Assembly (NCBI GenBank): GCA_016930695.1
Contig: JAFGGD010000030.1
Span: forward strand, 56,321 to 120,320
From: Candidatus Eiseniibacteriota bacterium
GTDB lineage: Bacteria > Orphanbacterota > Orphanbacteria > Orphanbacterales > Orphanbacteraceae
DNA length: 64,000 bases
Reading direction: 5' to 3'
Under the pieces are notes generated by a model. It had not been told where the DNA came from. It did not search any database and was given only the letters and a program-made list of their open reading frames with translations. Of this stretch, positions 10,119 through 56,483 are shown piece after piece; position 1 is the stretch's first letter, and each line of letters begins with the position of its first letter. Position numbers and translations under genes: made by a program.

Positions 10119-10134
10119 GGCCGGCTTTTTGCAA
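10119..10134 (+). promoter_or_regulatory. Weak sigma-54-like -24/-12 element (CGGCCG-N5-TTGCA)
   Basis: GG and GC dinucleotides at correct spacing, about 90 nt upstream of the 10224 start. The -24 box deviates from TGGCAC at two positions. Confidence 0.2.
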
Positions 10135-10223
10135 TTTCATTGCGCGGGCGGTTCCCCGACCGTCCGGCCCACACGGGCCGATCCCCGGTCCGCCGAAAGA
10201 GTGAACGCAGAAGGGATGGAACC

Positions 10224-23780: not shown

Positions 23781-25532
23781 TCAGCGGATCAGCGTCATTT
23801 TGCGGACCACGCTCTCTCCGTTCGCATCGAGCCGGTAGAGATAGACGCCGGAAGCGACGGAGCGGCCGGCGTCCGTCGTGCCGTCCCAGACCTTCTCGTG
23901 ATCCCCCGCGCCGACCTCGCCCCGGAAGAGGGTTCGGACGATCCGTCCGGAGGGGTCGAGGACCGTCAACGCCACGCGGGAGGGATTCTCCACGCGGAAG
24001 GGAAGAACGGTGGCCGGGTTGAAGGGGTTCGGCCGGTTGGGAAGGAGAACGAAGGCGGCGGGCGGCGCGCCGGCGGCGATCGCCGTCGCCGTCTCGTGGA
24101 GGAAGGCGATGTTCGGGTCGTCCGGATCCCAGTTGGTGACCACCAGGTCGAGGTTCTCGGAATAGACGTAGTCGATCTCCACGTTCCCCGAACCGGCGGG
24201 CGGGGCGGAGGCGAGCGAGATCCATCCCTTGTCCAGGTCGTAGGCGTAGGCGCCGTAGGGGACGGGGTTCCCGTTCACCCGGATCGCGTCGATACGGCGG
24301 AGGGGGAAGTTTTCCGTATAAAACACCTTCGCCGCACCGTCGCCGCTCTTCGACTCACCGGTCACGGCGACGGAACCGAAGTTGTCCAGGTCCCCCCAGA
24401 CGCAGCTCTCCACCACGAGTCCTTTGGCCGGGTTGGGGAAGATGTAGGAGAAGGAGGCGGTCGGCTCCAGGGCGCCGCCGAGGTTCTCGTACACGACCGC
24501 ATGCTCCCACCAGCCTCCCGAGGCGAGGTCGAGGTCGCCGTCGCCGTCCGCGTCGGCGAGGGAGACGGCGGAGTAGTACTGCTTCGGGTCCGAACAGATC
24601 CAGGAGGCGTTCGCCTCCAGCGTGCCGCCGGTGTTGAAGTAAACGCGCACGTCCGACGCGCCGCCGAGCTGGCCGTTGTTCGCCACCGCCAGGTCGAGCA
24701 GACCGTCGCCGTTCACGTCCCCCCAATCGAGCTGGAGGGTGTTCTCCGTGTCCGCCGACTCCCAGAAGGGAACCGAATCGAGCCCCGCGCCGTTGTTCCG
24801 GTACACCCGGTTGGGGCCGAACTCGTTCGCCACCGCCAAGTCGAGGTCGCCGTCGCCGTCCAGGTCCCCCCACGCCACGTCGAGGGAGTAGTCCACCGGA
24901 CCGGTGGTCCAAACCGCGCCGGTCGTCAGCACGCCGCCGTCGTTCCTGTACAGCTTGCTCTTCTGCGGCACCGACGTGTAAGTCTCGCCGCAGGCGACCG
25001 CCAGGTCGAGGTCGCCGTCGCCGTCCGCGTCCCCCCACGCGAGATCGAAGCTGTTGTCCAGGTCGCCGGAAGTCCAAACCGGCAGCGAGGAGAAGGTTCC
25101 CCCCTGGTTCTCGTACACCTTGTCGTACTGGGGCGTCCCCGGATCGCCGAGCAGCGCGACGGCGAGATCCAGGTCGCCGTCGCCGTCCATGTCGCCCAAA
25201 TCGATGTGACAGTGGTAGCCCACGTCGGCGCTGCTCCAAGAGGCGGTTCTCTCGAGCATGCCGCCCAGGTTGTAGTACACGCGGTTCGGATTCCGAGCCA
25301 TGTCATTGCCGTTTCCGGTCACCAGATCGAGATAGCCGTCGCCATCCACATCGGCGAGAGCCCCGCCGGTGCTGTAGTCCCCGTCGATGGACCGCCAGTC
25401 CGGCGGTTTGATCAGGGGCACCACCCCACGCGCCGGGAGGGGTGCCGCGAGAAGGAGCGGCAGGGGAAGAAGGAGAAGGAGCGTTCGGAAAAAAGCGGGA
25501 AGGGATAGGGTTCGGATCCCGGCACCGGACAT
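23781..25532 (-). CDS. FG-GAP/VCBS-repeat beta-propeller protein with T9SS C-terminal sorting domain
   Basis: Signal peptide ...LLLLLPLPLLLAAPLPARG. Repeated DxDGDGxxDLxV calcium-binding repeats (DVDGDGYLDLVTG, DMDGDGDLDLAVA, DADGDGDLDLAVA, DLDGDGDLDLAVA, DVNGDGLLDLAVA, DADGDGDLDLASG). C-terminus ...SGVYLYRLDANGESVVRKMTLIR. The mirror ORF 23757-25508 (+) was rejected. Confidence 0.75.
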   Translation of the reverse strand: MSGAGIRTLSLPAFFRTLLLLLPLPLLLAAPLPARGVVPLIKPPDWRSIDGDYSTGGALADVDGDGYLDLVTGNGNDMARNPNRVYYNLGGMLERTASWSSADVGYHCHIDLGDMDGDGDLDLAVALLGDPGTPQYDKVYENQGGTFSSLPVWTSGDLDNSFDLAWGDADGDGDLDLAVACGETYTSVPQKSKLYRNDGGVLTTGAVWTTGPVDYSLDVAWGDLDGDGDLDLAVANEFGPNRVYRNNGAGLDSVPFWESADTENTLQLDWGDVNGDGLLDLAVANNGQLGGASDVRVYFNTGGTLEANASWICSDPKQYYSAVSLADADGDGDLDLASGGWWEHAVVYENLGGALEPTASFSYIFPNPAKGLVVESCVWGDLDNFGSVAVTGESKSGDGAAKVFYTENFPLRRIDAIRVNGNPVPYGAYAYDLDKGWISLASAPPAGSGNVEIDYVYSENLDLVVTNWDPDDPNIAFLHETATAIAAGAPPAAFVLLPNRPNPFNPATVLPFRVENPSRVALTVLDPSGRIVRTLFRGEVGAGDHEKVWDGTTDAGRSVASGVYLYRLDANGESVVRKMTLIR

Positions 25533-25608: not shown

Positions 25609-25693
25609 TGCCGGAGGTCGGAATCGAACCGACACGAGGCTAAGCCTCGGGGGATTTTGAGTCCCCTGCGTCTACCAATTTCACCACTCCGGC
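25609..25693 (-). tRNA. tRNA-Leu (anticodon CAA)
   Basis: Reverse complement reads GCCGGAGTGGTGAAATTGGTAGACGCAGGGGACTCAAAATCCCCCGAGGCTTAGCCTCGTGTCGGTTCGATTCCGACCTCCGGCA. It has a 7-bp acceptor stem, anticodon loop CUCAAAA (CAA), a long variable arm and a GTTCGATTC T-loop. It is close to the E. coli leuX sequence as recalled. CCA is not encoded. Confidence 0.85.
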
Positions 25694-25836: not shown

Positions 25837-25909
25837 GGGGCTGTAGCTCAGCTGGGAGAGCACTTGACTGGCAGTCAAGAGGCCACGGGTTCGAGCCCCG
25901 TCAGCTCCA
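25837..25909 (+). tRNA. tRNA-Ala (anticodon GGC)
   Basis: GGGGCTGTAGCTCAGCTGGGAGAGCACTTGACTGGCAGTCAAGAGGCCACGGGTTCGAGCCCCGTCAGCTCCA. G3:U70 Ala identity pair, anticodon loop CUGGCAG, GTTCGAGCC T-arm. CCA is not encoded. Confidence 0.9.
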
Positions 25910-27217: not shown

Positions 27218-30200
27218 TTGACGATGCGCTTCCTTCGAACTATTCCGGCGCTTTCGATCCTGGCCGGCGCGCTTCTCTGCGCGGCCCTCCCCGCGGCGGC
27301 GGTCGAAGGGCTCCTTCTGATCGCGCCGGGCGGGGCGGGCTGGACCGATTCGCGGGACGCCATCGAGGGAGCGGGCGGCCGTCTCCTCTTCGCCTTCCCA
27401 CCGGGGGGTGCGGTGATTGAGGGACCGGATTCCTTCTGGGAGAGGATCGCCGGGCTACGCGACGATTGGACCGTCCGTTTCGACGCGATCCCCGAGTCGG
27501 AGTCGGCCGGGTTCGAGCGGACCGCGCGTTTCGCGGCGCATGCTTGGAACAGGAGGCTCTCGCCGCCGGCGCGGGGGGCGCATCGCGCCGGAGAGCCGGG
27601 AGAGAGCCGCGCCGGTCCGGCCCCCGCCGGCGACGGGGGCATGATGAAGGCGCCTCCGGGCGGCAATTTCTTCGACACGAGCGAGTTCTTCCTCGGCACG
27701 GTCGCGATCGCCATCCTCCTTCCGGAGAGCGACGGTTCGATCGATCCCTCCACCGAAAACTGGTCCGCCGCGCGGATCGACTCCGTGATCGCCGAGGTGC
27801 AGGAGGGAGCGGCCTGGTGGATCGGGAAGGCGCCGGGCGGGCGGCTTTCCTTCGTGTATGAAATCCCCGATCCGATCCCCTGTCCCTATGAGCCGATCTC
27901 ACGCAACGCGTTCGTGGCGAAACAGGAGACCCTCTGGGTCCGCACCGTTTTCGATTCCCTGGGCTACGCCTCCGGCGACACATGGTTTCGCGGCCGTTCC
28001 TACCTGAACGACGTGCGGGACACCCACGGCGCCGACTGGGCGGTGGCGGTTTTCGTCGCCGACTCCGAGAACGATCCGGACGGGAGGTTCGCCAACAGCC
28101 TGATCGGGTTCTCCTACTACGGCGGGCCCTACCACTGCATGACCTACGACTGCGGTTCCTACGGGATCGGGGGGATGCGCGCCGTCGAGGCGCACGAGCT
28201 GGCGCACAATTTCTACGCCCTCGACGAATACTACTCGGCCCACAAGGGGTGCGCCCTGAAGGCGGGATACCTTTACGCGGAGAACCAGAACAGCGAATAC
28301 GGTTCCTGCATTCTCGACGAATCGTGCATCATGCGGGACGACCTGCAGGCGGCCTACGACTCGAGCGCCGCCTGCGTCTACACCCTCGCGCAGGTCGGGA
28401 TGGCCGACGACGACGAAGACGGGATCGCCGATATTCTGGACACCCATCCGAGCACCCTCTTCGACGCCTTCCCCGACTCGACCGACGATGTGACTCCGAC
28501 CGTCGGCGGCGCCGCCGAGGTGAATCCCCGCACCAACCGGAACGCGCTCGGCGAAGGGAACGACATCACGCTGAACACGATTTCCGCCGTGCAGGTCCGC
28601 ATAGACGGGGGGGAATGGCTCGTCGCGCAGCCGGCGGACGGCGTATTCGATTCCACCTGGGAAGCCTTCACCTTCACCGCTCCGGCGGTGACCGAGACCG
28701 CCCACGTCTTCGAGGCCCGGGCGATCAACTCCGAGGGGAACGCGGACACGGTCTTCGCCGCGGAGACGCTCCTCGTCTACGACGGCACGCCGCCGTCACC
28801 GGTGGCATCGCCCGTCGCCGCGGCCCTCGACTCATCGGTCACGCTGGCCTGGGTCGCGCCCGAGGACGGCGACTACGAAGCGGTGATGATCCGCTTCGGC
28901 ACCGCCGCCTACCCGGCGGACACGCTCGACGGTTTCCTCCTGGAACGGCGCGCCGGCGCCCCCGGCGAACCGGACACGACGATCCACGCCGGCCTCTTCC
29001 CGGACACCACCTACTATTACGCCTTCTTCTCTCTCGACGAGGCGTCCAACCCCTCGGCGCGCGCGGAGGCCACCGCCACGCCTCTCTACCCGCTCCCGCC
29101 GGCGGCCCTCCTCGCGCCCCCGGCCGGATCGCTTTATGTCGAAATCGAAACGGACTTTCTCTGGAGCGCGATCCCCCTCGATGATCCGCTCGACACATTG
29201 ATCGCCTACGCCGTGCAGATCGCCCGGGACAGCCTGTTCACCGACGTGCTGGTGGACAGCGAAGCGACCGCCGGATCGCCTGCGGACACCTTCTGGACCT
29301 GCGCCGGCCTCCCCGAGGGGACCATCCTCTGGTGGCGCGCGCGCGGCCTGGACGTCCTCTCCGGCACATGGGGCCTTTGGGGCGTGGGATCGCGATTCGC
29401 CACCCGGCTCCCCCTCGCGGGGATCGCCTTCCTCGACTCCACGCTCTCCGGCTACACCAACTTCGCCGACGGCGATTCGCTTCTCCCCAACGAGGACGCG
29501 CGCGTCGAGGTCCGTATCGAACCGGCGGACACTCTCGACATCGGCGGCTTCGCCGGCTGGGTCCGCTGGGAGGGAACCACGACCGACTCCGCGCCCCTCG
29601 CCCTGGACAGGAACGAGGGGGGATACGGCTACTGGCGGGGCGAGATCCCCTATGGAACCGCCTTCCACCGCGGGGACACGGTCTCCTTTTACGTCTCCGC
29701 CGGAGCCCCCTACCAAGCGGGTCTGCGGGACAAGAACGCCGGGGACGACTACGCCTTCACGGCGGGGAGGAGCAAGCTCGCCGCGCTCCACGTGCCGGAG
29801 CAGACGGACCCCTATGTGCCGATGCGGTATCCCTTCATCCCGAGCGACGCGGATCCGTCGATCACTCTGACGATCCGCGCCGAGCCTTCCGGGAACGTCA
29901 CCGGCGGCGCGGCCGTTCTCCGTGTCGCCGGCGATCCGAACTACTCTCTCTTCCCGGTCCTTTCGGACACGCTGATCGGCGGCGTCGATTACCTCACCGT
30001 TCTCGTCGATTCCACCTTCGACGTCGACGACGTGGTGGAGTACTACCTGCGGGTCTGGGGTGACCCGTCGCTTTGGGACACCACCTTCCTCTACGGGACC
30101 AACGACACGAGCCGGACCGCCTCCGTCGAGGCGAGCGCCGCGGGCGCGCCCTTCACCTTCCTCGTGCACAGCGTGACCGGGCTTCCCGCGGCGGGAGACG

Positions 30201-30490
30201 GGCTCCTCCCGTCCCGAAACGAACTTCTTCCGAACGCGCCCAATCCGTTCAACCCGACGACCACCCTCTCCTTCGCACTCACCCGCGCCGAGCGCGTCAG
30301 CCTCGCACTCTTCGACGTGCGGGGACGGCTGGTCCGCGTGCTGATGGACGACGCCCGCCCGCCGGGCTGGCACGAAATCGCCTGGAACGGCTTGGACGGC
30401 GGCGGGAAGGAAGCGCCGAGCGGCGTCTACTTCTCCGTGCTCCGGGGGAACGGCTGGAACCAAACCCGCAAGATCGTCCTCATCCGTTAA
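27218..30490 (+). CDS. Large secreted zinc metallopeptidase-like protein (HEXXH) with T9SS C-terminal sorting domain
   Basis: Signal peptide MTMRFLRTIPALSILAGALLCAALPAAA. MRAVEAHELAHNFYALDEYY contains HEXXH with a downstream acidic residue. 1090 aa with a Gly/Asp-rich beta-rich body. C-terminus ...SGVYFSVLRGNGWNQTRKIVLIR. Confidence 0.65.
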   Translation: MTMRFLRTIPALSILAGALLCAALPAAAVEGLLLIAPGGAGWTDSRDAIEGAGGRLLFAFPPGGAVIEGPDSFWERIAGLRDDWTVRFDAIPESESAGFERTARFAAHAWNRRLSPPARGAHRAGEPGESRAGPAPAGDGGMMKAPPGGNFFDTSEFFLGTVAIAILLPESDGSIDPSTENWSAARIDSVIAEVQEGAAWWIGKAPGGRLSFVYEIPDPIPCPYEPISRNAFVAKQETLWVRTVFDSLGYASGDTWFRGRSYLNDVRDTHGADWAVAVFVADSENDPDGRFANSLIGFSYYGGPYHCMTYDCGSYGIGGMRAVEAHELAHNFYALDEYYSAHKGCALKAGYLYAENQNSEYGSCILDESCIMRDDLQAAYDSSAACVYTLAQVGMADDDEDGIADILDTHPSTLFDAFPDSTDDVTPTVGGAAEVNPRTNRNALGEGNDITLNTISAVQVRIDGGEWLVAQPADGVFDSTWEAFTFTAPAVTETAHVFEARAINSEGNADTVFAAETLLVYDGTPPSPVASPVAAALDSSVTLAWVAPEDGDYEAVMIRFGTAAYPADTLDGFLLERRAGAPGEPDTTIHAGLFPDTTYYYAFFSLDEASNPSARAEATATPLYPLPPAALLAPPAGSLYVEIETDFLWSAIPLDDPLDTLIAYAVQIARDSLFTDVLVDSEATAGSPADTFWTCAGLPEGTILWWRARGLDVLSGTWGLWGVGSRFATRLPLAGIAFLDSTLSGYTNFADGDSLLPNEDARVEVRIEPADTLDIGGFAGWVRWEGTTTDSAPLALDRNEGGYGYWRGEIPYGTAFHRGDTVSFYVSAGAPYQAGLRDKNAGDDYAFTAGRSKLAALHVPEQTDPYVPMRYPFIPSDADPSITLTIRAEPSGNVTGGAAVLRVAGDPNYSLFPVLSDTLIGGVDYLTVLVDSTFDVDDVVEYYLRVWGDPSLWDTTFLYGTNDTSRTASVEASAAGAPFTFLVHSVTGLPAAGDGLLPSRNELLPNAPNPFNPTTTLSFALTRAERVSLALFDVRGRLVRVLMDDARPPGWHEIAWNGLDGGGKEAPSGVYFSVLRGNGWNQTRKIVLIR

Positions 30491-30569: not shown

Positions 30570-30599
30570 TTGACAGCGCACGGCCCCCTCTGCTACGTT
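30570..30599 (+). promoter_or_regulatory. Sigma-70-like promoter (TTGACA-N18-TACGTT) of the BMC operon
   Basis: Consensus -35 and a 4/6 -10 with 18-nt spacer, about 70 nt upstream of the BMC-H start. RBS AAGGAGGAG ahead of the ATG. Confidence 0.45.
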
Positions 30600-30670
30600 C
30601 CACGAGATTCTCGAGGAAACACACCCCGATCCGAGCCGCCCGTCGGCCGGATCGTCGCAAGGAGGAGAGC

Positions 30671-30964
30671 ATGGGCGAAGCGTTGGGCATGATCGAGTGT
30701 CGCGGGTTCATCGGCGTGGTGGAAGCCGCGGACGCGATGGTGAAGGCGGCCAAGGTCACCCTGGTGCACTACGAACGGATCGGCGGCGGTTACGCCACGG
30801 CGATCATCCGCGGAGACGTGGCCGCCGTGCGCGCCGCGACCGAAGCGGGTTCCGCCGCGGCGAGCAAGGTGGGCGAACTGGTCTCGGTGCATGTCATTCC
30901 CCGCCCCCATTCGAACCTGGAAGAGGTGCTCCCCATCGGGAAGCGCTCCGGCGACAACGACTGA
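30671..30964 (+). CDS. Bacterial microcompartment shell protein BMC-H (PduA/EutM/CcmK family)
   Basis: [76 protein letters not shown] matches the canonical BMC-domain sequence almost residue by residue. Confidence 0.9.
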
Positions 30965-30989
30965 ACGAGGTTCCGGGGAGGGAGCGTAG

Positions 30990-31283
30990 ATGGTACTGGG
31001 CAGGGTGGACGGCACGGTGGTCGCCACGCGGAAAGACGCCAAGCTGGAGGGCCTCAAGCTCCTCCTGGTCCGCGTGGTCGATCATCAGGGTAATCCGTCC
31101 GGCGGCGCCTTCGTCGCCGTCGATTCCGTGGGCGCCGGCGTCGGCGAGGTGGTTCTCTGCGCCCAAGGAAGTTCCTCCCGCCTCACCCCCGCCACGGAAA
31201 ACCGGCCGGTCGACGCGGTGATCCTCGCCATCGTCGATCTGGTCGAGGCGGAGGGGCGGGTCACCTACCGGAAGGACGCGTAG
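30990..31283 (+). CDS. Bacterial microcompartment vertex protein BMC-P (EutN/CcmL/PduN family), copy 1
   Basis: [31 protein letters not shown]...[15 protein letters not shown] shows the typical EutN/CcmL N-terminal pattern (M.LG.V.GTVV.T.K...L.G.KLL.V). Confidence 0.85.
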
Positions 31284-31288
31284 GACCG

Positions 31289-32713
31289 GTGGAGAAGGGC
31301 GATTCCTACATCGACGCGATCGTCGACCGCGTGCTGGAGAGGCTGACCGCGGGGGCGTCCGGGACGCGCCCGGCCCCGTCCACGGCGGGGGACGGCCTCT
31401 TCGACACCCTGGACGAAGCGGCGCGCGCCGCGGCGGAGGCGTTTCGCGCATTCTCCGCGCTCCCGCTGGAGGCGCGCCGCAGGACGGTCGCCGCCGTCCG
31501 CCGCGCGGCGGTGGAGGGGGCGGACGAACTCTCCCGCCTCGCCGTGGCGGAGACCGGCATGGGGCGTGTGGAGGACAAGGTCCGCAAGAACGTCCTCGCC
31601 GCCGAGAAAACGCCCGGACCGGAGATCCTCGATCCCGACGCGGTGACCGGCGACCACGGGCTCACGCTGACCGACCGCGCCCCCTACGGCGTGATCGGAT
31701 CGATCACCCCCTCCACCAACCCGAGCGAAACGATCATCCACAACGGCATCTCCATGATGGCCGGCGGGAACGCCGTCGTCTTCAACGGACACCCGGGCGC
31801 CAAGGAGACCACCGCGCGGACCATCGTCCTCCTGAACCGCGCCATCCACGACGCGGGCGGGCCTCCCTTCCTCTTCACCGCCGTGCGGGAGCCGACCATC
31901 GAAACCGCGCAGGCGCTGATGACGCACCCGGGGATCCGCCTTCTGGTGGTGACCGGCGGGCCGGGAGTGGTGGCGGCGGCGATGCGGAGCGGGAAGAGGG
32001 TGGTGGCGGCCGGGCCGGGAAATCCGCCCGCCGTGGTGGACGAAACCGCCGACGTGGAGAGGGCGGGGAAGGATCTGGTCCTCGGTTCCTCGTTGGACAA
32101 CAACATCATCTGCGTCGACGAGAAAGAGGTGATCTGCGTCGCCGCCGTCGCGGATCGCCTTCGCGACGCGATGGTCCGCGCCGGCGCGCACCTTCTGGAA
32201 CCGAACCGCCTGGAGGCGCTGGAAAAGCTGGTCCTCGCGGAGAACGCCGGCCCGGGACGACACGGCGCCCCGCGCAAGGAATGGGTCGGACGGGACGCGA
32301 GCCGCATTCTCGACGCCCTCGGCGTCCCCGCCGCGGGGGATCCCCGAATCGTTCTGGTCGAGACGGAGCCGGATCACCCGTTCGTCTGGACCGAGCTTCT
32401 CATGCCGGTCATCCCTCTCTGCCGCGTGCCGGACGTGGACGCGGCGATCGACCTGGCGGTCCGGGTGGAGCAGGGCTTCGGTCACACCGCCAGCATGCAC
32501 TCCCGGAACCTGGACGCCCTCAGCCGGATGGCCCGAGCGGTGAATACATCCATTTTCGTGAAGAACGGCCCCAACTACTCCGGACTCGGTTTCGGCGGCG
32601 AGGGGCACACCAGCTTCACCATCGCCAGCCCCACCGGCGAGGGGCTGACCGACGCCCGCACCTTCACCCGGCCGCGCCGTTGCGTGCTCGTCGACCGGTT
32701 CCGAATCGTTTAG
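31289..32713 (+). CDS. CoA-acylating aldehyde dehydrogenase (PduP/EutE-like, BMC-associated)
   Basis: GTG start. AGPGNPPAVVDETADVERAGKDLVLGSSLDNNIICVDEKEV aligns closely to the PduP active-site region (AGAGNPPV..DETADIEKA...SFDNNLPCIAEKEV), including the catalytic Cys. The N-terminal amphipathic helix IDAIVDRVLERL looks like an encapsulation peptide. Confidence 0.85.
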   Translation: MEKGDSYIDAIVDRVLERLTAGASGTRPAPSTAGDGLFDTLDEAARAAAEAFRAFSALPLEARRRTVAAVRRAAVEGADELSRLAVAETGMGRVEDKVRKNVLAAEKTPGPEILDPDAVTGDHGLTLTDRAPYGVIGSITPSTNPSETIIHNGISMMAGGNAVVFNGHPGAKETTARTIVLLNRAIHDAGGPPFLFTAVREPTIETAQALMTHPGIRLLVVTGGPGVVAAAMRSGKRVVAAGPGNPPAVVDETADVERAGKDLVLGSSLDNNIICVDEKEVICVAAVADRLRDAMVRAGAHLLEPNRLEALEKLVLAENAGPGRHGAPRKEWVGRDASRILDALGVPAAGDPRIVLVETEPDHPFVWTELLMPVIPLCRVPDVDAAIDLAVRVEQGFGHTASMHSRNLDALSRMARAVNTSIFVKNGPNYSGLGFGGEGHTSFTIASPTGEGLTDARTFTRPRRCVLVDRFRIV

Positions 32714-32722
32714 GCGGAAACC

Positions 32723-33280
32723 ATGGAAGCGCTCGCCCTGCTCGAACTGGACTCCATCGCCGGGGGATACCGCGCCGCCGACGCGTTGATGAAAGCCGCG
32801 CGGGTGCGGCTCCTGGAGATGCGCCCCCTGGACCCGGGCAAGTTCCTGATTCTCTTTCGCGGCCCGGTGGGGGAGGTGGACGCCGCCTATCGGCGCGGCC
32901 GGGAGACCGCCGGCGAGGATTTGGTGGACGAGGTCTACCTGCCCGCCGCCCACCCGTCCCTTTTCCCGCTGCTCGAGGGGAAACGGCCGGCGGCGTCCAT
33001 CGAGGCGCTCGGCGTGATCGAGACCGGCTCCGCCGCCTCCGCGGTGTGCGCGGCGGACGCGGCGGCGAAAGCGGCGGAAGTCGCGCTTCTCCGGGTGCAT
33101 CTCGCCCGAAGGATCGGCGGCAAGGGATATCTGCTCCTCACCGGCGGCCAGGCGGACGTGGAGGCGGCGGTCGCCGCGGGAGCGGCGCGGGCCCGGGAGC
33201 GGGAACGGCTGGTGGCGGAGGTGGTGATCCCCGCGCCGACCGAGGAGATCTTCGAACGGCTCACCGCGGAGTGGCTCTAG
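32723..33280 (+). CDS. Tandem-BMC-domain shell protein BMC-T (PduT-like, 185 aa)
   Basis: Two BMC-like halves: LALLELDSIAGGYRAADALMKAARVRLLEMRP... and LGVIETGSAASAVCAADAAAKAAEVALLRVHLARRIGGKGYLLLTGGQADVEAAV. The size matches PduT-type BMC-T proteins. Confidence 0.7.
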   Translation: MEALALLELDSIAGGYRAADALMKAARVRLLEMRPLDPGKFLILFRGPVGEVDAAYRRGRETAGEDLVDEVYLPAAHPSLFPLLEGKRPAASIEALGVIETGSAASAVCAADAAAKAAEVALLRVHLARRIGGKGYLLLTGGQADVEAAVAAGAARARERERLVAEVVIPAPTEEIFERLTAEWL

Positions 33281-33281
33281 C

Positions 33282-33551
33282 ATGCGGATCGGCGACGTGA
33301 TCGGCACGGTGACGGCGACGCAGAAAGCGGAGAGCCTCGTCGGCAGGCGCCTTCTTCTGGTGCAACCGTTGGACGAGCGGGGCCGCCCGACCGAGGCGCC
33401 CCTCGTGGCGATCGACACGGTGAGCGCCGCCCCCGGCCAGAGGGTTTACTTCGTGGAGAAGCGAGAGGCGGCCAAGGCGTTCTTCGGACCTCAACTGCCG
33501 AGCGACGTGACCATCCTGGGAATCGTCGATCGGATCGACCTCGAGCCATGA
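33282..33551 (+). CDS. BMC vertex protein BMC-P, copy 2
   Basis: MRIGDVIGTVTATQKAESLVGRRLLLVQPLD...VAIDTVSAAPGQRVY has the EutN/CcmL pattern. The start is 2 nt after the BMC-T stop. Confidence 0.8.
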   Translation: MRIGDVIGTVTATQKAESLVGRRLLLVQPLDERGRPTEAPLVAIDTVSAAPGQRVYFVEKREAAKAFFGPQLPSDVTILGIVDRIDLEP

Positions 33552-33850
33552 TTCTCGGCGACGTCATCGGCACGGTAACTTCCACCGTCAAGCACGGGTC
33601 CCTCGCGGGGAGACGTCTCCTCTTGGTCCGCCCCGTCACGCCGGAAGGGGAGCCGTCGGGGGAGACGGAGATCGCCCTCGATTCGGTGGACGCCGGGATC
33701 GGCGACCGGGTGCTGGTCAACCGCGAGGGACGCTCCGCCGAAGCGATTTTGGGCGCCGACGGCATCCCGGTCCGCAGCGTGATCACGGCGGTGGTGGACG
33801 AGGTGGTGAGCGGCGGGCTCGTCGCCTACCGGAAAGGCGATGCGCCGTGA
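33548..33850 (+). CDS. BMC vertex protein BMC-P, copy 3
   Basis: ATGA overlap with copy 2. MILGDVIGTVTSTVKHGSLAGRRLLLVRPV...ALDSVDAGIGDRVLV. Confidence 0.8.
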   Translation: MILGDVIGTVTSTVKHGSLAGRRLLLVRPVTPEGEPSGETEIALDSVDAGIGDRVLVNREGRSAEAILGADGIPVRSVITAVVDEVVSGGLVAYRKGDAP

Positions 33851-34593
33851 ATCCGTCCGACCCCACCTCGCAGATCATCGAGGTCGGCCGTCTTCTTTAT
33901 GACCGTAGTTTATTGATCGGTACCGAGGGAAACCTCTCGATCCGCCTGGAGAGAAACCGGTTTCTGGTCACCGCCGCCGGTGTCTGCAAGGGGAGACTCC
34001 GGTCGATCGACCTGGTCACCGTCGACGGCGAAGGTCGAAAGATCGCCGGCGGCGGGCGGCCCTCTTCGGAGATCCTCCTTCACCTCGCCCTCTACCGCCT
34101 CCGGCCGGAGATCCGCGCCGTGGCGCACGCCCACCCGCCCACCGCCACCGGTTTCGCCGTCGCCGGCGTTTCCCTGGACGGGGCGGTCCTTCCCGAGGTC
34201 GTCGTCTCCGTCGGTTCCGTTCCGACCGCCCCTTACGGCACACCCTCCACGGAATCGCTCGCGGAGGCGGCGCTTCCCGTCGCCCGTTGCCACGACGCTT
34301 TTCTCCTAAAGAATCACGGCGCGGTCACTCTGGGCCGGAAGGATCTCTGGGAGGCGTTCCATCGGATGGAGATGGTGGAGAGCCTGGCGCGGATCACGCT
34401 CACCGCGCGCCTCCTCGGCGGCGCTCAGCCGCTCTGCGGGGACGAGGTGGAGCGCCTGATCCGTCTCCACGGCGATCCCACGCCGCCCGGCTGCGGCTTT
34501 CCCGGCGGAGGGCCGCCCCCGACGCCGGAGGAGGAGGATCTGATCGGGAAGGCGCTCCGTCGCCTCGAGGAGCGTCTCGGCGGGCGGGATTGA
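33847..34593 (+). CDS. Class II aldolase/adducin-family enzyme (fuculose/rhamnulose-1-phosphate aldolase-like) with C-terminal encapsulation-peptide-like helix
   Basis: GTGA overlap with the upstream gene. Class II aldolase metal/catalytic motifs SSEILLHLALY, AVAHAHPP and LLKNHGAVTLG. A Pro/Gly linker (PGCGFPGGGPPPTPEEE) then an amphipathic helix DLIGKALRRLEERLGG at the extreme C-terminus. Confidence 0.8.
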   Translation: MNPSDPTSQIIEVGRLLYDRSLLIGTEGNLSIRLERNRFLVTAAGVCKGRLRSIDLVTVDGEGRKIAGGGRPSSEILLHLALYRLRPEIRAVAHAHPPTATGFAVAGVSLDGAVLPEVVVSVGSVPTAPYGTPSTESLAEAALPVARCHDAFLLKNHGAVTLGRKDLWEAFHRMEMVESLARITLTARLLGGAQPLCGDEVERLIRLHGDPTPPGCGFPGGGPPPTPEEEDLIGKALRRLEERLGGRD

Positions 34594-34614: not shown

Positions 34615-34655
34615 AACGGCCGGCGCCGGACGCGTCGGCCGTTCTCTTTTCTCTT
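34615..34655. terminator. Bidirectional terminator between BMC operon and rpsT
   Basis: AACGGCCG-gcgccggacgcgt-CGGCCGTT 8-bp stem, then CTCTTTTCTCTT on the + strand and an A-rich tract (GAAAAACGGGAAAAAC) upstream on the other strand. Lies between convergent 3' ends. Confidence 0.55.
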
Positions 34656-34929: not shown

Positions 34930-35170
34930 CGAATTCTCCTCCGTTGTCGACAACGATCCTAAAATCTATCATTTCCGCCTCGAGGGGGTCAAGAGGAGAA
35001 TCGATCTTCGAGCGGAGGGGGCGATCCTGCGGAAAAGGGGTCCGCGCCGCCCGACGGGCAGGACGCGCCTTGACAGGGAGCCGTGGTGTTCCTATAGTGA
35101 CCACAAATCGTTGTGATTCAACGCGTCCCGGCGAAACAACGCCGTGCGAAACCTTAACCGGAGGGGCGGC

Positions 35171-36463
35171 ATGCCGAAACGGTACTTCCTGATCCTCATC
35201 GGGATCGCCCTCGCGTTTCCCACCGGCGCGGCGCGAGCCAAAGAGAACAATCGCTTCCTGAACTCGGAATTTCTCCCTCTCGGAGCCCGGTACGCCGGGA
35301 TGGGAGGAACCCACGTCGCCCTTCCGGGCGGCGTCGCCTGCGCCTATACGAACCCGGCGATCCTCCCCTGGACCTCGGACCTGGAGTTCACCTTGGAGGG
35401 GGTCTTCACCGGGGGCCCGGACCACGTCAGCGGGGAGGGGGACAACGCGCTCACCTACCAGGAGAGGAACGAGCTCGGTCTGATCGGCATACGCTTTCCG
35501 GATCGCGGAGGCTTCAGTTTCGCGATCATGGAGGTGACCCGTTACGATCACGACATCCGGGGGCATCTCTTCGGACTCCTCCCGGAGGGGGGGACCAAGC
35601 CGGTATACACGAAGAAGGCCGAGGAGGACCCGGACAAACTGATCAGCGATTACCAGGACCGCGCTCAGATCCGTTCCTTCGGTTTCACCACGGGGTATCG
35701 GTTCACTCCCAACGCCAGCTTCGGCCTCGGCTTCTGGATCGACCGAAAGAAGGTTTTCAAGAAGATCGACTACTACAGCTCGCCGGTCTCCAGCGGCGAG
35801 GAGATGGACGACCTGATCGAGAAAGACTACGTGGACCGGGAGGGGAACACCAACGACGTCACCCTGCGGATCACGGGGGGACTCTACTACCGTCTCACCG
35901 ACCGGATCGACGGCGCCCTCGCCTTCGGCACCGGTTCGGAGCTGCAGAGCGGGCTTCTCGTGGACGCCCGGACCACCATGATCTACGCCAAGGACAACCG
36001 GACCGTCTTCGACAAAACCCCCTGGAACATGCAGGCGGGCTTCTCCTTCTACTGGAGCGAGGGACTCCGTTTCGCCGGCGACGTCTCCTACCAGCACTGG
36101 AAGGACGTGCACCCGTATCTGAAATCCACCTTCCAGTTCGGCCTGGGCGCCGAGTGGGACTTCGACGAGAGGGTCACTTTTCGAGGCGGTTTCCGCACCT
36201 CCTTCGACCCGACCGATCTGCCGAGCACGGACGAGTTCCCGGGGGACGCGGCGTGGCGTGAGGAGCTCCGGGACATCGAGTGGAGCGGAACCCTCTTTCC
36301 GGCGGACGAGTACTTCCTGACCGCCGGCGTCGGCTACCGGCTCTCGCCGATCCTGCAGATCGACTTGGGCGTTCAGAACAGCGACCTGCTTAGCGCCGAG
36401 GACGGCCGCACCATGGTCACCGTGGGGGCCCGTTTCGTCACCGAGCAGCCCGACGACGACTAG
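35171..36463 (+). CDS. FadL/TodX-family (PorV-like) outer-membrane beta-barrel, second copy
   Basis: Signal peptide MPKRYFLILIGIALAFPTGAARA. LGARYAGMGGTHVALPGGVACAYTNPAIL matches the FadL/TodX N-terminal signature, as in the 2231 gene. 430 aa, barrel-sized. Confidence 0.5.
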   Translation: MPKRYFLILIGIALAFPTGAARAKENNRFLNSEFLPLGARYAGMGGTHVALPGGVACAYTNPAILPWTSDLEFTLEGVFTGGPDHVSGEGDNALTYQERNELGLIGIRFPDRGGFSFAIMEVTRYDHDIRGHLFGLLPEGGTKPVYTKKAEEDPDKLISDYQDRAQIRSFGFTTGYRFTPNASFGLGFWIDRKKVFKKIDYYSSPVSSGEEMDDLIEKDYVDREGNTNDVTLRITGGLYYRLTDRIDGALAFGTGSELQSGLLVDARTTMIYAKDNRTVFDKTPWNMQAGFSFYWSEGLRFAGDVSYQHWKDVHPYLKSTFQFGLGAEWDFDERVTFRGGFRTSFDPTDLPSTDEFPGDAAWREELRDIEWSGTLFPADEYFLTAGVGYRLSPILQIDLGVQNSDLLSAEDGRTMVTVGARFVTEQPDDD

Positions 36464-41204: not shown

Positions 41205-43579
41205 ACGTGAACCGCGCTCTCCGCCCAGCCGCCGCGGCGCTTCTCGCCGTCTCCGTCCTCACCGTCCCCGCGGCGCCGGCGGATATTTCACCCCTCGACC
41301 TTCCAGACCGGCCCATCGGCTGGCTCGCCCTCCCGGACGACTCGATCCTCGCCCAACCCGCTCCCGCTCGAGAGGGGATTCTCCGCATCTGCGCCGAGAT
41401 GGGGTGGGCGGAGCGGGAGTACCGCCTCCGCGCCGCCCTCCAGGAGAGACCCCGCGTAACCGACCCGCGGCTACGGGCCAGGGAGAGGAGCCGAATCGCC
41501 CGTCTGGCGGTCCGCGCCGGAAGAGACGGGGAAGCGGTTCTTTGGATCGAAAGAATCGGCGCGGAGGAGCCCTTCTTCTCCGCGGCGGCCGCACTCGCCG
41601 AGCTCCGTCTCGGCCGGACCGAGGCGGGCGCGGCGCGGCTCGAGCGGGTCCTCGAGGAGGGCGGTTTCGACGCGCCCGCGGCGGACCTCCTCCGTTACCG
41701 GCTCGCCGGAGCGCTCGGGATGAGCGGAGAGACCGACCGCTCCATCGCGCTCTACCGTTCCCTCGCCGCCGACCGGGAGAGCCGCTTCCGCTCTTCCTCC
41801 CGGCGGGAAGCGGCGAGGCTCCTCTTCGACAGCGGCGACGCCGGGGACGCCCTCGATCTCCTCCGCGAGGGATACGGCGCGTCCCTCGCCGATCTGACGG
41901 ACCGGGACCTTCTGTCGCGAGCGGCCCGCTACGAGCGGGGCCGCGGGCGAAACGCGAACGCGGCGGCCCTCTGGTCCCGTCTGCTCGAAACGTGGCCCGG
42001 GGACCGGCGCGCCCGGGAGGCGTACCGGGTCCTCCTCGCGATGCAAGAGGAGGGGAAAACGGAAAGGAACGAGCGCCTCCCCCTGCTTGGCGCCCGCGCC
42101 TCCGCCCGGAGCGGGAGAACGGACGAGGCGCTCCGCATCCTCGCCCCTCTGCTCGCCCTCCCGGAATCGGATCCTCTCGCCGGCGAGGCCGCCCTGGAAG
42201 CGGGCCGCGCGCTGTACGAGGCGGGCCGTTTTCGCGAAGCGCTCCGCCGCGTGCTTCCCCTCTCGGCGGGGGAGGGGGCGAGCGCGCGGGAAGCGCTCCT
42301 CTACGTCGCCCGCTGCCGTAAAAAGTCGGGGGAGTGGCGGGAGTCGATCGAGTCGTACAGGGAGTACACGCGGCGCTATCCGTCGAGTTCCATCGCGCCG
42401 GAGGCGGGGTGGGAGATCGCCTGGCGGCTCCGCCTCGCGGGCGAGAACGCCGAGGCGGCGGACGCATTCGCCGATCTGGAGCGCCTCTTCCCGCGGAGCG
42501 ACTACGCGGTCCGGGCCCCGCTTTACCGGTCCTTCTGCCTGGCGGCGACCGGGCGCGCCGGGGAGGCGTTCCAAGCCCTGGAAAAGATGACCGGCGGCGG
42601 AGGGGGCGGAAAGGACCGTGAGGACGCCCTTTTCTGGAGGGCGGAAGCCCTCGCGGATCGAGGAGAGAAGGAGGGCGCCGAGGAGGTCTACAGGGAGGTG
42701 GCGGAAGAATACGCCGAGACCTACTACGGGATCCGCGCGGCGAGCCGGATCGGGCTCCGCACCGTGCTCCCGCCGCCGGTGGGGAGGGGCGGCGACGATC
42801 CCCTTCTCCGTTGGATCCGCTCCTGGCACGGCGGCGCGAAAGGGACGGAACCGGACACGAATCTCCTCATCCTTTACCGGGACCTGGGAGAGAACGACGA
42901 GGCGCGGCGCGAGGCGAACCGGCTGCGGAAACGACACGAGAACGATCCGGAGGCGCTCCTCGGCATCGCGCGGGAATGCCGTCGCCTGGGACTCTTCGAC
43001 CGCGCCATCCCCTGCGCGCGCCGAATCCAAGCCCTCGCGGAAAAGAAGGGAGAAAACGCCCTCGTTCCGGAGCTCCTCGCCTTGATCTATCCCCTCGGTT
43101 ACCTGGACCGCGTGGAGGAGGCGATCCGTCCCTACCGCGTCTTCGGTCCCTTCCTCGTCCTCGCGCTGATGCGTCAGGAGAGCTGGTTTCACGAAGAGGC
43201 GCACTCCCCGGCGGACGCGCGCGGTCTACTGCAGGTCCTCCCCTCCACGGGGCGGCGGATCGCGCGCGCCCTAGGCGAGCCGGACGACTTCCCGTCGGAG
43301 GAACTCTTCCGGGCGGACCGGAACATCCGCTACGGGCTGTGGTATCTTCAGAGCCTGATCGACCGTTACGACGGCGACCTCGCCGTCGTGGCGAGCGCCT
43401 ACAACGCGGGGGAGGGGATGGCGGACCTTTGGCGGGCGGGGCTCACGCCGGGCGAACCGGGGGGCTACATCGAGAGGCTTCATTTTTCGGAGACCCGGGA
43501 CTACGTGAAGCGCGCCCTGGCCGGTTACTGGATCTACCGCTATCTGTACCAAAACATTGCTTCGGAACTGTATCAATAA
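41195..43579 (+). CDS. Soluble lytic murein transglycosylase (TPR superhelix + SLT domain)
   Basis: Signal peptide then multiple TPR-like Ala/Leu/Arg-rich repeats. SLT catalytic region LALMRQESWFHEEAHSPADARGLLQVLPSTG...YNAGEG (ES...GLMQ-type motif). The start may be a nearby GTG. Confidence 0.75.
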   Translation: MGVNVNRALRPAAAALLAVSVLTVPAAPADISPLDLPDRPIGWLALPDDSILAQPAPAREGILRICAEMGWAEREYRLRAALQERPRVTDPRLRARERSRIARLAVRAGRDGEAVLWIERIGAEEPFFSAAAALAELRLGRTEAGAARLERVLEEGGFDAPAADLLRYRLAGALGMSGETDRSIALYRSLAADRESRFRSSSRREAARLLFDSGDAGDALDLLREGYGASLADLTDRDLLSRAARYERGRGRNANAAALWSRLLETWPGDRRAREAYRVLLAMQEEGKTERNERLPLLGARASARSGRTDEALRILAPLLALPESDPLAGEAALEAGRALYEAGRFREALRRVLPLSAGEGASAREALLYVARCRKKSGEWRESIESYREYTRRYPSSSIAPEAGWEIAWRLRLAGENAEAADAFADLERLFPRSDYAVRAPLYRSFCLAATGRAGEAFQALEKMTGGGGGGKDREDALFWRAEALADRGEKEGAEEVYREVAEEYAETYYGIRAASRIGLRTVLPPPVGRGGDDPLLRWIRSWHGGAKGTEPDTNLLILYRDLGENDEARREANRLRKRHENDPEALLGIARECRRLGLFDRAIPCARRIQALAEKKGENALVPELLALIYPLGYLDRVEEAIRPYRVFGPFLVLALMRQESWFHEEAHSPADARGLLQVLPSTGRRIARALGEPDDFPSEELFRADRNIRYGLWYLQSLIDRYDGDLAVVASAYNAGEGMADLWRAGLTPGEPGGYIERLHFSETRDYVKRALAGYWIYRYLYQNIASELYQ

Positions 43580-56426: not shown

Positions 56427-56483
56427 TCCGCGGGCGCGCCCTCCGCGCCGTGCCGGTTGCCGGACCGCCCTTCCGCCGTTACC

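What the first reader, a model, noticed from the sequence alone, without database searches (positions are those of the whole stretch)
30671..34593. BMC locus lacks cofactor-recycling and downstream enzymes
Metabolosome loci normally also encode a phosphotransacylase, an alcohol dehydrogenase for NAD+ recycling, often an acetate/propionate kinase, and a regulator. None is present: the operon is flanked by a protease gene upstream and by a bidirectional terminator plus rpsT downstream. Either the partner enzymes are satellite-encoded, or this shell encapsulates only the aldolase/AldDH pair, which would leave CoA and NAD+ regeneration unexplained.
Basis: inference. Interest (0 to 1): 0.5.

Follow-up and report, generated by a model that had tools for sequence, protein, structure and literature searches.

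The report
Known-type minimal microcompartment operon, Eisenbacteria
This is a seven-gene bacterial microcompartment operon (five shell proteins, an aldolase and an aldehyde dehydrogenase) that lacks cofactor-recycling enzymes, but this "incomplete core" design is already catalogued and is common in environmental bacteria, so it is a new example of a known puzzle.

Summary
Bases 30671-34593 encode BMC-H, BMC-P, a CoA-acylating AldDH (N-terminal encapsulation peptide), a tandem BMC-T, two more BMC-P and a class II aldolase (C-terminal linker plus helix). No PTAC, Fe-ADH, acetate kinase, PduS/MNdh, extra shell gene or adjacent regulator occurs in the locus or elsewhere in the 64-kb window. The operon has its own promoter and ends at a terminator before rpsT.

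It is not a new kind. The source is a Candidatus Eisenbacteria MAG. The gene order matches the catalogued HO type II locus and resembles MIC7, both "metabolosomes with an incomplete core" (Axen 2014; Sutter 2021). Eight other loci (five shown with both flanks) share the operon and flanks at 63-81% AldDH identity. None of 80 AldDH-seeded metagenome loci has a PTAC nearby.

More distant relatives beside the same rpsT gene carry PTAC, a second BMC-H and PduS, and their BMC-T has a pore cysteine. The window clade has Asp there. So it lacks all three recycling features together.

Whether an unlinked PTAC or MNdh module exists remains open. My searches were negative but weak, and another Eisenbacteria genome encodes its tailed aldolase as an orphan gene. 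Interest is modest.

The parts
30570..30599 (+). Promoter of the operon: TTGACA (30570-30575), an 18-nt spacer ending in TG (30591-30592), then TACGTT (30594-30599)
   Evidence: Read from the sequence. The same TTGACA-N17/18-TGnTAnnTT arrangement lies about 50-100 nt upstream of the BMC-H start in L001, L093, L094, L002 and L004, although the surrounding intergenic sequence is not conserved. The simple promoter scan did not list it. No transcription evidence.
30659..30665 (+). Ribosome-binding site AAGGAGG, 5 nt before the BMC-H ATG
   Evidence: Sequence. Also present in the relatives.
30671..30964 (+). BMC-H, the single hexamer shell protein (97 aa), with the standard KAAK and PRPH interface motifs
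   Evidence: Pfam BMC 7e-30. The best natural PDB match is Haliangium ochraceum HO-5815 (5djb/5v74), E 2.4e-39.
30990..31283 (+). BMC-P1, pentamer vertex protein (97 aa)
   Evidence: Pfam EutN_CcmL 6e-30. The best PDB match is the HO shell pentamer in 5v74, E 8.6e-34, aligned end to end; the next hit is 1e-20.
31289..32713 (+). CoA-acylating aldehyde dehydrogenase (474 aa). N-terminal encapsulation peptide at about residues 7-19 (YIDAIVDRVLERL, nt 31307-31345), followed by a Pro/Gly/Ala-rich linker. Catalytic Cys275.
   Evidence: NCBIfam PRK15398 at 643 bits, cutoff 403. PDB matches are PduP-type 5jfl (3.7e-129) and the C. phytofermentans fucose/rhamnose BMC enzyme 4c3s (3e-123). The N-terminal helix motif is conserved in all relatives. 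C275 is invariant and I11 and V15 nearly invariant in 37 homologues. 100% identical to MBN1825775.1.
32723..33280 (+). BMC-T (single-layer tandem-domain trimer, PduT-like, 185 aa), with Asp37 (nt 32831-32833) where PduT-type proteins have the Fe-S-binding pore Cys
   Evidence: Two BMC domains, 3e-38. PDB 3nwg 4e-41, PduT 3n79 8e-38, HO-T1 5dih 4e-24. In the pore-column survey, Cys occurs in 55 of 58 T proteins next to PduS and in 0 of 63 without PduS. Asp occurs only in the window clade.
33282..33551 (+). BMC-P2 (89 aa)
   Evidence: Pfam EutN_CcmL 2e-26. 37-43% identical to P1 and P3, with its own orthologues at 56-71% in relatives. Part of the classic BMC-P triplet.
33548..33850 (+). BMC-P3 (100 aa)
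   Evidence: Pfam EutN_CcmL 3e-24. Paralogue and orthologue pattern.
33847..34593 (+). Class II (FucA-fold) aldolase-family enzyme (248 aa). Catalytic domain residues 1-208, low-confidence linker 209-226, C-terminal helix 227-245 (EEDLIGKALRRLEERL, nt 34525-34581), taken as an encapsulation peptide.
   Evidence: Pfam Aldolase_II 9e-45. AlphaFold model with pLDDT 90.4: linker pLDDT about 50, terminal helix H227-245. Foldseek best match is FucA 4c24, TM 0.89. N29, S31, E75, H94, H96 and H157 are invariant in 44 homologues, and E117 replaces the FucA Tyr113. No NCBIfam equivalog cutoff is reached, so the substrate is unassigned.
34615..34643 (.). GC-rich hairpin between A-rich and T-rich runs: a shared (bidirectional) intrinsic terminator for the BMC operon and the convergent rpsT
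   Evidence: Terminator scan and sequence.

Best explanation
This is a chromosomal, vertically inherited metabolosome operon of a Candidatus Eisenbacteria MAG. It belongs to the catalogued 'incomplete core' kind. Its gene order is that of the HO type II locus, and its taxon and Cys-less BMC-T match MIC7.

Shown here: one BMC-H, one PduT-like BMC-T and a BMC-P triplet are encoded with exactly two enzymes, and both enzymes carry terminal amphipathic helices of the encapsulation-peptide type.

Inferred: the FucA-fold enzyme cleaves a phosphorylated ketose inside the shell into DHAP and a short aldehyde. The co-packaged AldDH converts that aldehyde at once to an acyl-CoA, using NAD+ and CoA. The compartment would serve to trap the aldehyde.

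Inferred, and the least certain step: this lineage runs without dedicated internal recycling. Acyl-CoA and NADH would leave and CoA and NAD+ would enter across the shell, and cytosolic enzymes would finish the pathway. The clade lacks three things together that its fuller relatives beside the same rpsT gene possess: PTAC, the PduS/MNdh NADH dehydrogenase, and the Fe-S pore cysteine of BMC-T (here Asp37).

I am about 0.85 confident in the identity as a known-type incomplete-core metabolosome and about 0.45 confident that there is no internal recycling. The figure given is a blend of the two.
For: Gene identities.

Encapsulation peptides: the AldDH N-terminal motif is conserved in all relatives. 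The aldolase has a linker plus terminal helix in the model. These are the only two of 48 window genes that match an EP-like pattern.

Organism: AldDH and aldolase are 100% identical to Eisenbacteria MAG proteins on a 315,885-bp contig.

Conservation: L001-L005 and L093 have the same seven genes and the same flanks; the short contigs L092 and L094 carry the 5' part of the same operon (L094 also the upstream neighbour). AldDH identity is 63-81%. These nine loci form one AldDH clade with bootstrap 1.0. Catalytic residues are invariant and the promoter is conserved.

Fuller relatives at the same rpsT junction: L007 and L172 read PTAC-H-H-P-AldDH-PduS-T(Cys)-P-P-aldolase-proS-rpsT. Other Eisenbacteria carry PTAC as the first gene of the operon.

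The pore Cys tracks PduS: 55 of 58 with PduS against 0 of 63 without, as already published (PMC11626177).

No PTAC was found in the window or in 0 of 80 AldDH-seeded loci. No PTAC among the best 120 hits lies on a contig of a length that carries a minimal locus. That read-out does work for the aldolase.

Against: No whole genome could be searched, so an unlinked PTAC, MNdh/BMC-T(SE), AlcDH or BMC-Tdp gene is not excluded.

The PTAC scans were truncated.

The published route for acyl-CoA exit in PTAC-less shells is a BMC-Tdp pore. No BMC-Tdp is encoded in the window or in the relatives' flanks, so the conduit is unexplained.

The AldDH tree does not resolve whether PTAC and PduS were lost or gained; deeper bootstraps are 0.1-0.3.

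The aldolase substrate is unknown. Its best profile hit is a decarboxylase family, well below cutoff.
Confidence: 0.55

Rival explanations
1. It is an ordinary split locus. [quoted passage not shown] These could be PTAC for CoA, an MNdh/BMC-T(SE) module or an alcohol dehydrogenase for NAD+, and perhaps a BMC-Tdp. The window would then show only the main locus.
For: There is a direct precedent in the same phylum. Assembly GCA_026388185.1 has its main locus on contig 11 (L090). Its class II aldolase, which has a C-terminal extension, sits alone on contig 14 with no shell gene nearby (L173).

The catalogue reports satellite aldolase, BMC-Tdp and PduS/T modules for HO and MIC7 and for other types.

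Only 64 kb of a MAG was visible here, and my PTAC searches were truncated.
Against: Every related locus that has a PTAC has it as the first gene of the operon.

No PTAC among the best 120 hits lies on the 316-kb, 600-kb or 1.23-Mb contigs that carry minimal loci. Named Eisenbacteria PTACs fall in other accession blocks.

No contig of the three identified assemblies appears in the 80 best PTAC loci.

The in-locus BMC-T has lost the Fe-S cysteine, so it cannot itself partner an MNdh.
Confidence: 0.32
2. The 'aldolase' is not the enzyme that makes the aldehyde. It could be a decarboxylase, epimerase or other member of the class II aldolase/adducin superfamily, or an accessory enzyme. The compartment would then be a general aldehyde-oxidising shell fed by an unidentified source, as in MIC7 loci that have AldDH only.
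For: No NCBIfam equivalog cutoff is met. The best hit is 3-oxo-tetronate-4-phosphate decarboxylase at 121 bits against a cutoff of 250.

The FucA catalytic Tyr113 is replaced by an invariant Glu.

Many related loci (Ha-H-P-AldDH-T-P-P) have no aldolase in the locus.

Sutter 2021 lists HO among types with no obvious signature enzyme.
Against: The Zn ligands, the Glu75 equivalent and the phosphate-binding residues are invariant. The closest folds are FucA and the DHAP-releasing 6btg aldolase.

The gene is translationally coupled to the shell genes and carries a cargo-type tail. The same family is the signature enzyme of PVM and GRM5 compartments.
Confidence: 0.1
3. It is a decaying remnant. The operon would be a non-functional leftover of a fuller PTAC/PduS locus and would no longer build a working compartment.
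For: It lacks three components that the fuller loci at the same rpsT junction have.
Against: All seven ORFs are intact. Gene order, overlapping or tightly spaced starts, the promoter and the catalytic residues are conserved across nine loci that have diverged to 63% AldDH identity. GC3 is 0.82-0.90, as in neighbouring genes.
Confidence: 0.03

Closest known systems
HO-type BMC (Haliangium ochraceum model shell), type II locus; Sutter et al. 2021, Supplementary Data 2
   Same: It has a single BMC-H, a BMC-P triplet inside the main operon, an AldDH with an N-terminal EP and a pfam00596 aldolase at the end of the main locus. It has no PTAC or AlcDH, and its BMC-Ts has no pore cysteine. The window BMC-H and BMC-P1 have the HO shell proteins as their best solved-structure matches. 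The function of HO is also unknown ('enigmatic').
   Different: HO shells include two BMC-Tdp proteins, one in the main locus. None is in this 64-kb window. The window BMC-T is closer to PduT-like proteins (3nwg, 4e-41) than to HO-T1 (4e-24). HO is mostly found in Deltaproteobacteria/Myxococcota, with one Latescibacteria member, whereas this locus is from Eisenbacteria.
MIC7 (metabolosome with incomplete core 7); Sutter et al. 2021
   Same: MIC7 is found in Candidatus Eisenbacteria and Latescibacteria. Its AldDH has an N-terminal EP. [quoted passage not shown] It has no PTAC.
   Different: MIC7 is described as having AldDH as the only enzyme and two BMC-H proteins, one of them specialised. The window has an aldolase and a single BMC-H. 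MIC7-like loci in my sample (Ha-H-P-Ald-T-P-P followed by HU and RNase R) sit in a different chromosomal context.
Fuller loci beside rpsT (L007, JGI metagenome 3300005098; L172, GCA_053497275.1), of MIC4/MUF2-like content
   Same: They have the same order H-P-AldDH-T-P-P-aldolase and the same convergent rpsT neighbour. AldDH identity is about 60%.
   Different: They add a PTAC (with an N-terminal EP), a second BMC-H and PduS/MNdh. Their BMC-T has the CPGK pore cysteine.
PVM and GRM5 fucose/rhamnose metabolosomes
   Same: They pair a class II aldolase signature enzyme with a CoA-acylating AldDH. The window AldDH matches the C. phytofermentans fucose/rhamnose BMC enzyme at 3e-123.
   Different: Those loci also encode PTAC, a lactaldehyde reductase or alcohol dehydrogenase, a kinase and regulators. 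The window aldolase belongs to the divergent HO/MIC3/ACI-like group with Glu in place of Tyr113.
PTAC-less SPU metabolosomes (Dwyer et al. 2024, PMC11585597)
   Same: Their AldDHs are closely related, within the same 98-locus clade. PTAC is usually absent. The idea that acyl-CoA leaves the shell has already been proposed for them.
   Different: Their signature enzymes are DeoC/DERA and RpiB, not a class II aldolase, and they typically encode a BMC-Tdp next to BMC-H (cluster c1). The window clade has neither.

Membership tests
[quoted passage not shown] | [quoted passage not shown] | tested here: met
   Pfam BMC and EutN_CcmL hits.
[quoted passage not shown] | A core acylating AldDH (pfam00171) is present | tested here: met
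   PF00171. NCBIfam PRK15398 above its cutoff. PduP-type PDB matches. Invariant catalytic Cys275.
[quoted passage not shown] | No core AlcDH and/or PTAC in the locus | tested here: met
   None in the locus or anywhere in the 64-kb window.
HO-type BMC, type II (Sutter 2021) | [quoted passage not shown] | tested here: met
   One BMC-H and three EutN paralogues that are 37-47% identical to each other, each with its own orthologues. The best solved-structure matches of H and P1 are the HO proteins.
HO-type BMC, type II (Sutter 2021) | AldDh with an N-terminal EP; pfam00596 aldolase in the main locus, sometimes with a C-terminal extension | tested here: met
HO-type BMC, type II (Sutter 2021) | Two BMC-Tdp proteins (CsoS1D-like in the main locus, CcmP-like in a satellite) plus one BMC-Ts | tested here: not met
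   A BMC-Ts is present. There is no BMC-Tdp in the window or in the flanks of the clade's loci (Pfam; tblastn with Tdp references). A distant satellite cannot be excluded.
HO-type BMC, type II (Sutter 2021) | Assignment by the authors' shell-protein colour HMMs and locus scoring; AldDh nearest to SPU5/SPU7 | not testable with these tools
   The type HMMs are not runnable here. My AldDH tree places the clade among SPU-like and MIC7-like loci without resolution.
MIC7 (Sutter 2021) | Occurs in Candidatus Eisenbacteria or Latescibacteria | tested here: met
   100% identity to Eisenbacteria MAG proteins.
MIC7 (Sutter 2021) | AldDh is the only enzyme besides shell proteins | tested here: not met
   A class II aldolase is the last gene of the operon.
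MIC7 (Sutter 2021) | A standard BMC-H plus a second, specialised BMC-H | tested here: not met
   Only one BMC-H is present.
MIC7 (Sutter 2021) | BMC-P triplet; BMC-Ts lacking the pore Cys when no PduS is present | tested here: met
   Asp37 at the pore position and no PduS.
PVM / MUF2 / MIC4-type aldolase metabolosomes | PTAC (pfam06130) accompanies the aldolase and AldDH, often with an acetate kinase | tested here: not met
   No PF06130 or PF00871 in the window.
SPU metabolosome | Signature enzymes DeoC/DERA (pfam01791) and RpiB (pfam02502) | tested here: not met
   Neither family was hit in the window Pfam scans. tblastn with DeoC references from related loci also found nothing in the window or the minimal-clade loci; no RpiB reference was run.

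The most novel reading that the evidence does not exclude
The Eisenbacteria clade represented here could be a natural two-enzyme metabolosome that works with no internal cofactor recycling and no BMC-Tdp. It would have arisen by reduction from an ancestor with PTAC, MNdh and a Cys-pore BMC-T at the same chromosomal site. The Asp-ringed BMC-T pore, or loose packing, would be the route by which NAD(H) and CoA/acyl-CoA cross the shell. That would give a compact seven-gene system for testing directly whether metabolosome shells pass large cofactors.
Probability: 0.25. Interest if true: 0.55.

Novelty: new member of a known kind. Interest (0 to 1): 0.3.

Why it matters
How metabolosomes without PTAC or alcohol dehydrogenase keep NAD+ and CoA available is an acknowledged open question. 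It was raised in 2014 and partly answered in 2024 by the MNdh/BMC-T(SE) electron-export model and by the BMC-Tdp exit proposal.

This clade lacks all of the proposed local solutions at once: PTAC, AlcDH, MNdh, the pore cysteine and BMC-Tdp. It is nevertheless conserved across nine sampled loci. If whole-genome checks confirm the absence, its seven genes would be a convenient minimal system for measuring cofactor permeability of a native shell.

As found in this window, though, it is one more example of a catalogued type, not a new system.

Tried and rejected
1. PTAC or PduS pseudogene remnants in the window. tblastn gave only noise, with E of 0.19 or higher.

2. A riboswitch or structured leader. 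Rfam at gathering thresholds found only two tRNAs in the window. The 5'UTR hairpins of six relatives are no more stable than shuffled sequences, with z from -0.85 to +1.45. Rejected.

3. Locating the window's own genome. The look-up of encoding contigs has no record for the window AldDH or for P0001, so nothing beyond the 64 kb could be read.

4. Genome-wide satellite test by a PTAC scan of GTDB representatives.

5. The contig-length and accession-block tricks on PTAC protein hits were negative, but only 120 of 7,906 hits were listed. Looking up P0176 (661-kb contig) gave another full locus in an unrelated assembly, not a satellite.

6. Polarising loss against gain with an AldDH neighbour-joining tree. 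The clade is solid (bootstrap 1.0) but the deeper nodes are unresolved.

7. Assigning the aldolase substrate. No NCBIfam equivalog cutoff was met, and the fold search returns FucA, YgbL and a DHAP-releasing aldolase with near-equal scores.

8. The 'protease' label for the upstream gene is not supported by Pfam or NCBIfam.

Full report
**What is there.**
Bases 30671-34593 form a tightly packed, same-strand operon of seven genes. In order they are BMC-H (30671-30964), BMC-P (30990-31283), an aldehyde dehydrogenase (31289-32713), a tandem-domain BMC-T (32723-33280), two more BMC-P genes (33282-33551 and 33548-33850) and a class II aldolase-family enzyme (33847-34593). All have strong Pfam support.

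The operon has its own promoter, TTGACA-N18-(TG)-TACGTT at 30570-30599, and a good ribosome-binding site. It ends at a 12-bp GC-rich hairpin at 34615-34643, flanked by an A-run and a T-run, which it shares with the convergent rpsT gene.

GC3 of the seven genes is 0.82-0.90, as in neighbouring genes, and regional G+C is like the surroundings. The locus therefore does not look recently acquired.

**Check of the absence claim.**
I chose about 47 genes across the 64-kb window by their GC3 signal and scanned them all against Pfam. None is a PduL-type PTAC, an Fe-alcohol dehydrogenase, an acetate or propionate kinase, a PduS-type flavoprotein or a further shell protein, and no regulator gene adjoins the operon.

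tblastn with PTAC, PduS, DeoC, BMC-Tdp and TIM sequences from related loci also found nothing in the window.

The one detail that does not hold is the 'protease' upstream. That 1090-aa protein shows only an HExxH motif and a FlgD_ig/T9SS-type C-terminal domain.

**The two enzymes.**
The AldDH is a CoA-acylating PduP/EutE-type enzyme:
- It scores 643 bits against NCBIfam PRK15398, whose cutoff is 403.
- Its PDB matches are 5jfl at 3.7e-129 and the C. phytofermentans fucose/rhamnose BMC enzyme 4c3s at 3e-123.
- Its catalytic Cys275 is invariant.
- Its N-terminus (YIDAIVDRVLERL followed by a Pro/Gly/Ala-rich linker) is a typical encapsulation peptide and is conserved in every relative.

The aldolase-family protein keeps the FucA-type Zn ligands, the catalytic Glu and the phosphate-binding residues, all invariant in 44 homologues.
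- It has an invariant Glu where FucA has Tyr113.
- It reaches no NCBIfam equivalog cutoff.
- It folds like FucA, YgbL and DHAP-releasing aldolases.
- Its substrate is therefore unassigned.
- The model shows a confident catalytic domain (residues 1-208), a low-confidence linker and a C-terminal helix at 227-245 (EEDLIGKALRRLEERL), which is the architecture of a C-terminal encapsulation peptide.

Among 48 window genes, only these two termini match an EP-like amphipathic pattern. One further match lay inside a BMC-P domain and I disregarded it.

**Source and relatives.**
The AldDH and the aldolase are 100% identical to proteins of a Candidatus Eisenbacteria MAG (MBN1825775.1) on a 315,885-bp contig.

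Eight other loci share the arrangement:
- L001, L002 and L004 come from three assemblies: GCA_043809585.1, GCA_025782575.1 and GCA_029262235.1.
- L003 and L005 are copies from sequencing-run assemblies, and L092-L094 come from metagenomes.
- L001-L005 and L093 have the same seven genes in the same order. L092 and L094 are short contigs that carry the 5' part of the same operon.
- L001-L005 and L093 have the same flanks: the large secreted protein upstream, and rpsT, an outer-membrane protein and purN downstream; where the contig runs further, purC, purH and guaA follow. L094 retains the upstream neighbour.
- AldDH identity to the window ranges from 63% to 81%.
- The nine AldDHs form one clade with bootstrap 1.0.
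- The promoter elements are conserved although the surrounding intergenic sequence is not.

So the minimal locus is a stable, inherited feature of a lineage. It is not an assembly artefact and not a decaying remnant.

**Comparison with fuller loci.**
At about 60% AldDH identity, two loci sit next to the same convergent rpsT gene. They read PTAC, BMC-H, BMC-H, BMC-P, AldDH, PduS, BMC-T, BMC-P, BMC-P, aldolase, proS, rpsT (L007; L172).

Other Eisenbacteria carry PTAC, H, H, P, AldDH, PduS, T, P in a different context, followed by HU and RNase R. In every case PTAC is the first gene of the operon and carries its own N-terminal EP.

I aligned 121 BMC-T proteins from all fetched loci and read the pore position:

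| BMC-T context | Number of proteins | Pore residue |
|---|---|---|
| Next to PduS | 58 | Cys in 55 |
| Without PduS | 63 | Cys in 0 (His 29, Ser 19, Asp 8, Gln 4, others 3) |

Asp occurs only in the window clade. This reproduces a published rule: the CP(G/S)K motif is conserved only next to PduS/MNdh (PMC11626177).

The window clade therefore lacks three recycling-related features together: PTAC, MNdh and the Fe-S pore cysteine. Loss is the more parsimonious reading, because the fuller architecture is widespread and shares the rpsT junction. However, the AldDH tree does not resolve the direction, with deeper bootstraps of only 0.1-0.3.

**How unusual it is.**
It is not very unusual. Of 80 metagenome loci retrieved with this AldDH, none has a PTAC. 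That includes 0 of 27 loci with at least 2 kb on both sides. The common forms are:
- SPU-like loci: regulator, DeoC, BMC-Tdp, H, P, AldDH, T, P, P.
- MIC7-like loci: H, H, P, AldDH, T, P, P.

The literature already names this situation:
- Axen et al. [quoted passage not shown]
- Sutter et al. 2021 catalogued the HO type: 41 loci, function 'enigmatic'. Type II has the BMC-P pair and a pfam00596 aldolase in the main locus.
- The same catalogue describes MIC7, found in Eisenbacteria and Latescibacteria, with a BMC-Ts that lacks the pore Cys and has no PduS.

The window BMC-H and BMC-P1 have the H. ochraceum shell proteins as their best solved-structure matches. The window locus fits HO type II in gene order and MIC7 in taxon and BMC-T type. 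It departs from HO in having no BMC-Tdp, and from MIC7 in having an aldolase and only one BMC-H. I file it as a new member of the incomplete-core kind, intermediate between those two catalogued types.

**How it probably works.**
Shown: there is a complete shell gene set (hexamer, trimer, three pentamers), and there are two enzymes with cargo-type tails.

Inferred from the families: the aldolase-fold enzyme releases DHAP and a short aldehyde from a phosphorylated ketose, and the AldDH traps the aldehyde as an acyl-CoA.

For the cofactors there are two live options.

(a) No dedicated internal recycling. Acyl-CoA and NADH leave and CoA and NAD+ enter.
- This fits the joint absence of PTAC, MNdh and the pore Cys.
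- It fits the proposal that acetyl-CoA exits PTAC-less SPU shells.
- Its weak point is the conduit. The published route is a BMC-Tdp pore, and none is encoded here.

(b) Unlinked genes supply the missing functions.
- This is realistic in this phylum. Assembly GCA_026388185.1 has its main locus on one contig (L090) and its tailed aldolase alone on another contig with no shell gene nearby (L173).
- My tests against (b) were negative but weak:
  - No PTAC among the best 120 hits lies on a contig whose length matches one that carries a minimal locus. The same read-out does recover the aldolases of those contigs.
  - Named Eisenbacteria PTACs fall in other accession blocks.

I put (a) at roughly 0.45-0.5 and (b) at roughly 0.3.

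**Verdict.**
The locus type and the question are both already in the literature, and relatives with the same design are common. The additions from this analysis are:
- the conserved Eisenbacteria clade with its fixed chromosomal position;
- its relation to fuller PTAC/MNdh loci at the same rpsT junction;
- the clade-specific Asp at the BMC-T pore;
- the absence of BMC-Tdp.

Interest is modest unless whole-genome searches show that the clade truly lacks every recycling module.

Noticed in passing
L001:12570-13361, L002:12580-13341, L004:12562-13266; proteins P0253-P0266; window 33847-34593 for comparison: In the sister lineages, the linker between the aldolase domain and the C-terminal helix carries a CxxCxxC(+C) motif (GCG(N/G)CxTC(T/S)). 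Another clade has FPDCESCGYCSG at the same place. The window protein and its three closest homologues have lost it (PPGCGFPGGG). This may be a metal or Fe-S site on a BMC cargo tail.
   Followed up: partly
window 34195-34197 (aldolase Glu117): Glu is invariant in 44 homologues of this BMC-associated aldolase group, at the position where FucA has the catalytic Tyr113 (LPEVV against HYMIA). The group may use a different acid/base residue or a different substrate.
   Followed up: partly
L173:8001-8837 (GCA_026388185.1 contig 14) and L090 (same assembly, contig 11): An Eisenbacteria genome whose main BMC locus has PTAC and PduS encodes its class II aldolase, which has a C-terminal tail, as an orphan gene. 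It lies between a YjeF-type gene and a methyltransferase, with no shell gene nearby.
   Followed up: yes
BMC-T pore column across L001-L172 (window residue Asp37, nt 32831-32833): BMC-T proteins without PduS fall into residue classes at the pore position that appear to follow locus type: His mostly in DeoC/BMC-Tdp (SPU-like) loci, Ser in most MIC7-like loci, Asp in the window clade, and Gln in a few. What a His or Asp triad at the trimer centre does is unknown.
   Followed up: partly
window 30570-30599 and the equivalent positions in L001, L002, L004, L093, L094: A near-consensus -35 box with a TG-extended -10 element is conserved upstream of BMC-H across loci whose proteins are only about 65% identical. 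No regulator gene is adjacent. This suggests constitutive or globally controlled expression.
   Followed up: partly
window 27218-30490, and the first gene upstream in L001-L005, L093 and L094: A protein of about 1090 aa with an HExxH motif and a T9SS/FlgD_ig C-terminal domain sits immediately upstream of the BMC operon in every locus of the clade with upstream sequence, sometimes with one inserted gene. It has no family assignment.
   Followed up: no
L096, L097, L114, L152, L153, L155: A different recurrent architecture occurs among the AldDH relatives: H, P, P, PduS, T(Cys or Asn), TIM, AldDH, P, P, DeoC, DeoC. The DeoC carries an N-terminal EP-like helix.
   Followed up: no
window 8014-9927, 10089-11180, 23781-25532(-), 43557-44888, 54513-56426: The window holds an unusually high number of secreted proteins ending in FlgD_ig/Por_Secre_tail domains. 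There is also a PorV-like outer-membrane protein at 2231-3241 and another at 35144-36463, consistent with a T9SS-type secretion lifestyle.
   Followed up: no
window 25609-25693(-) and 25837-25909(+); 56457-57407: There are two divergent tRNA genes and a XerC/D-type tyrosine recombinase. Neither appears connected to the BMC locus.
   Followed up: no
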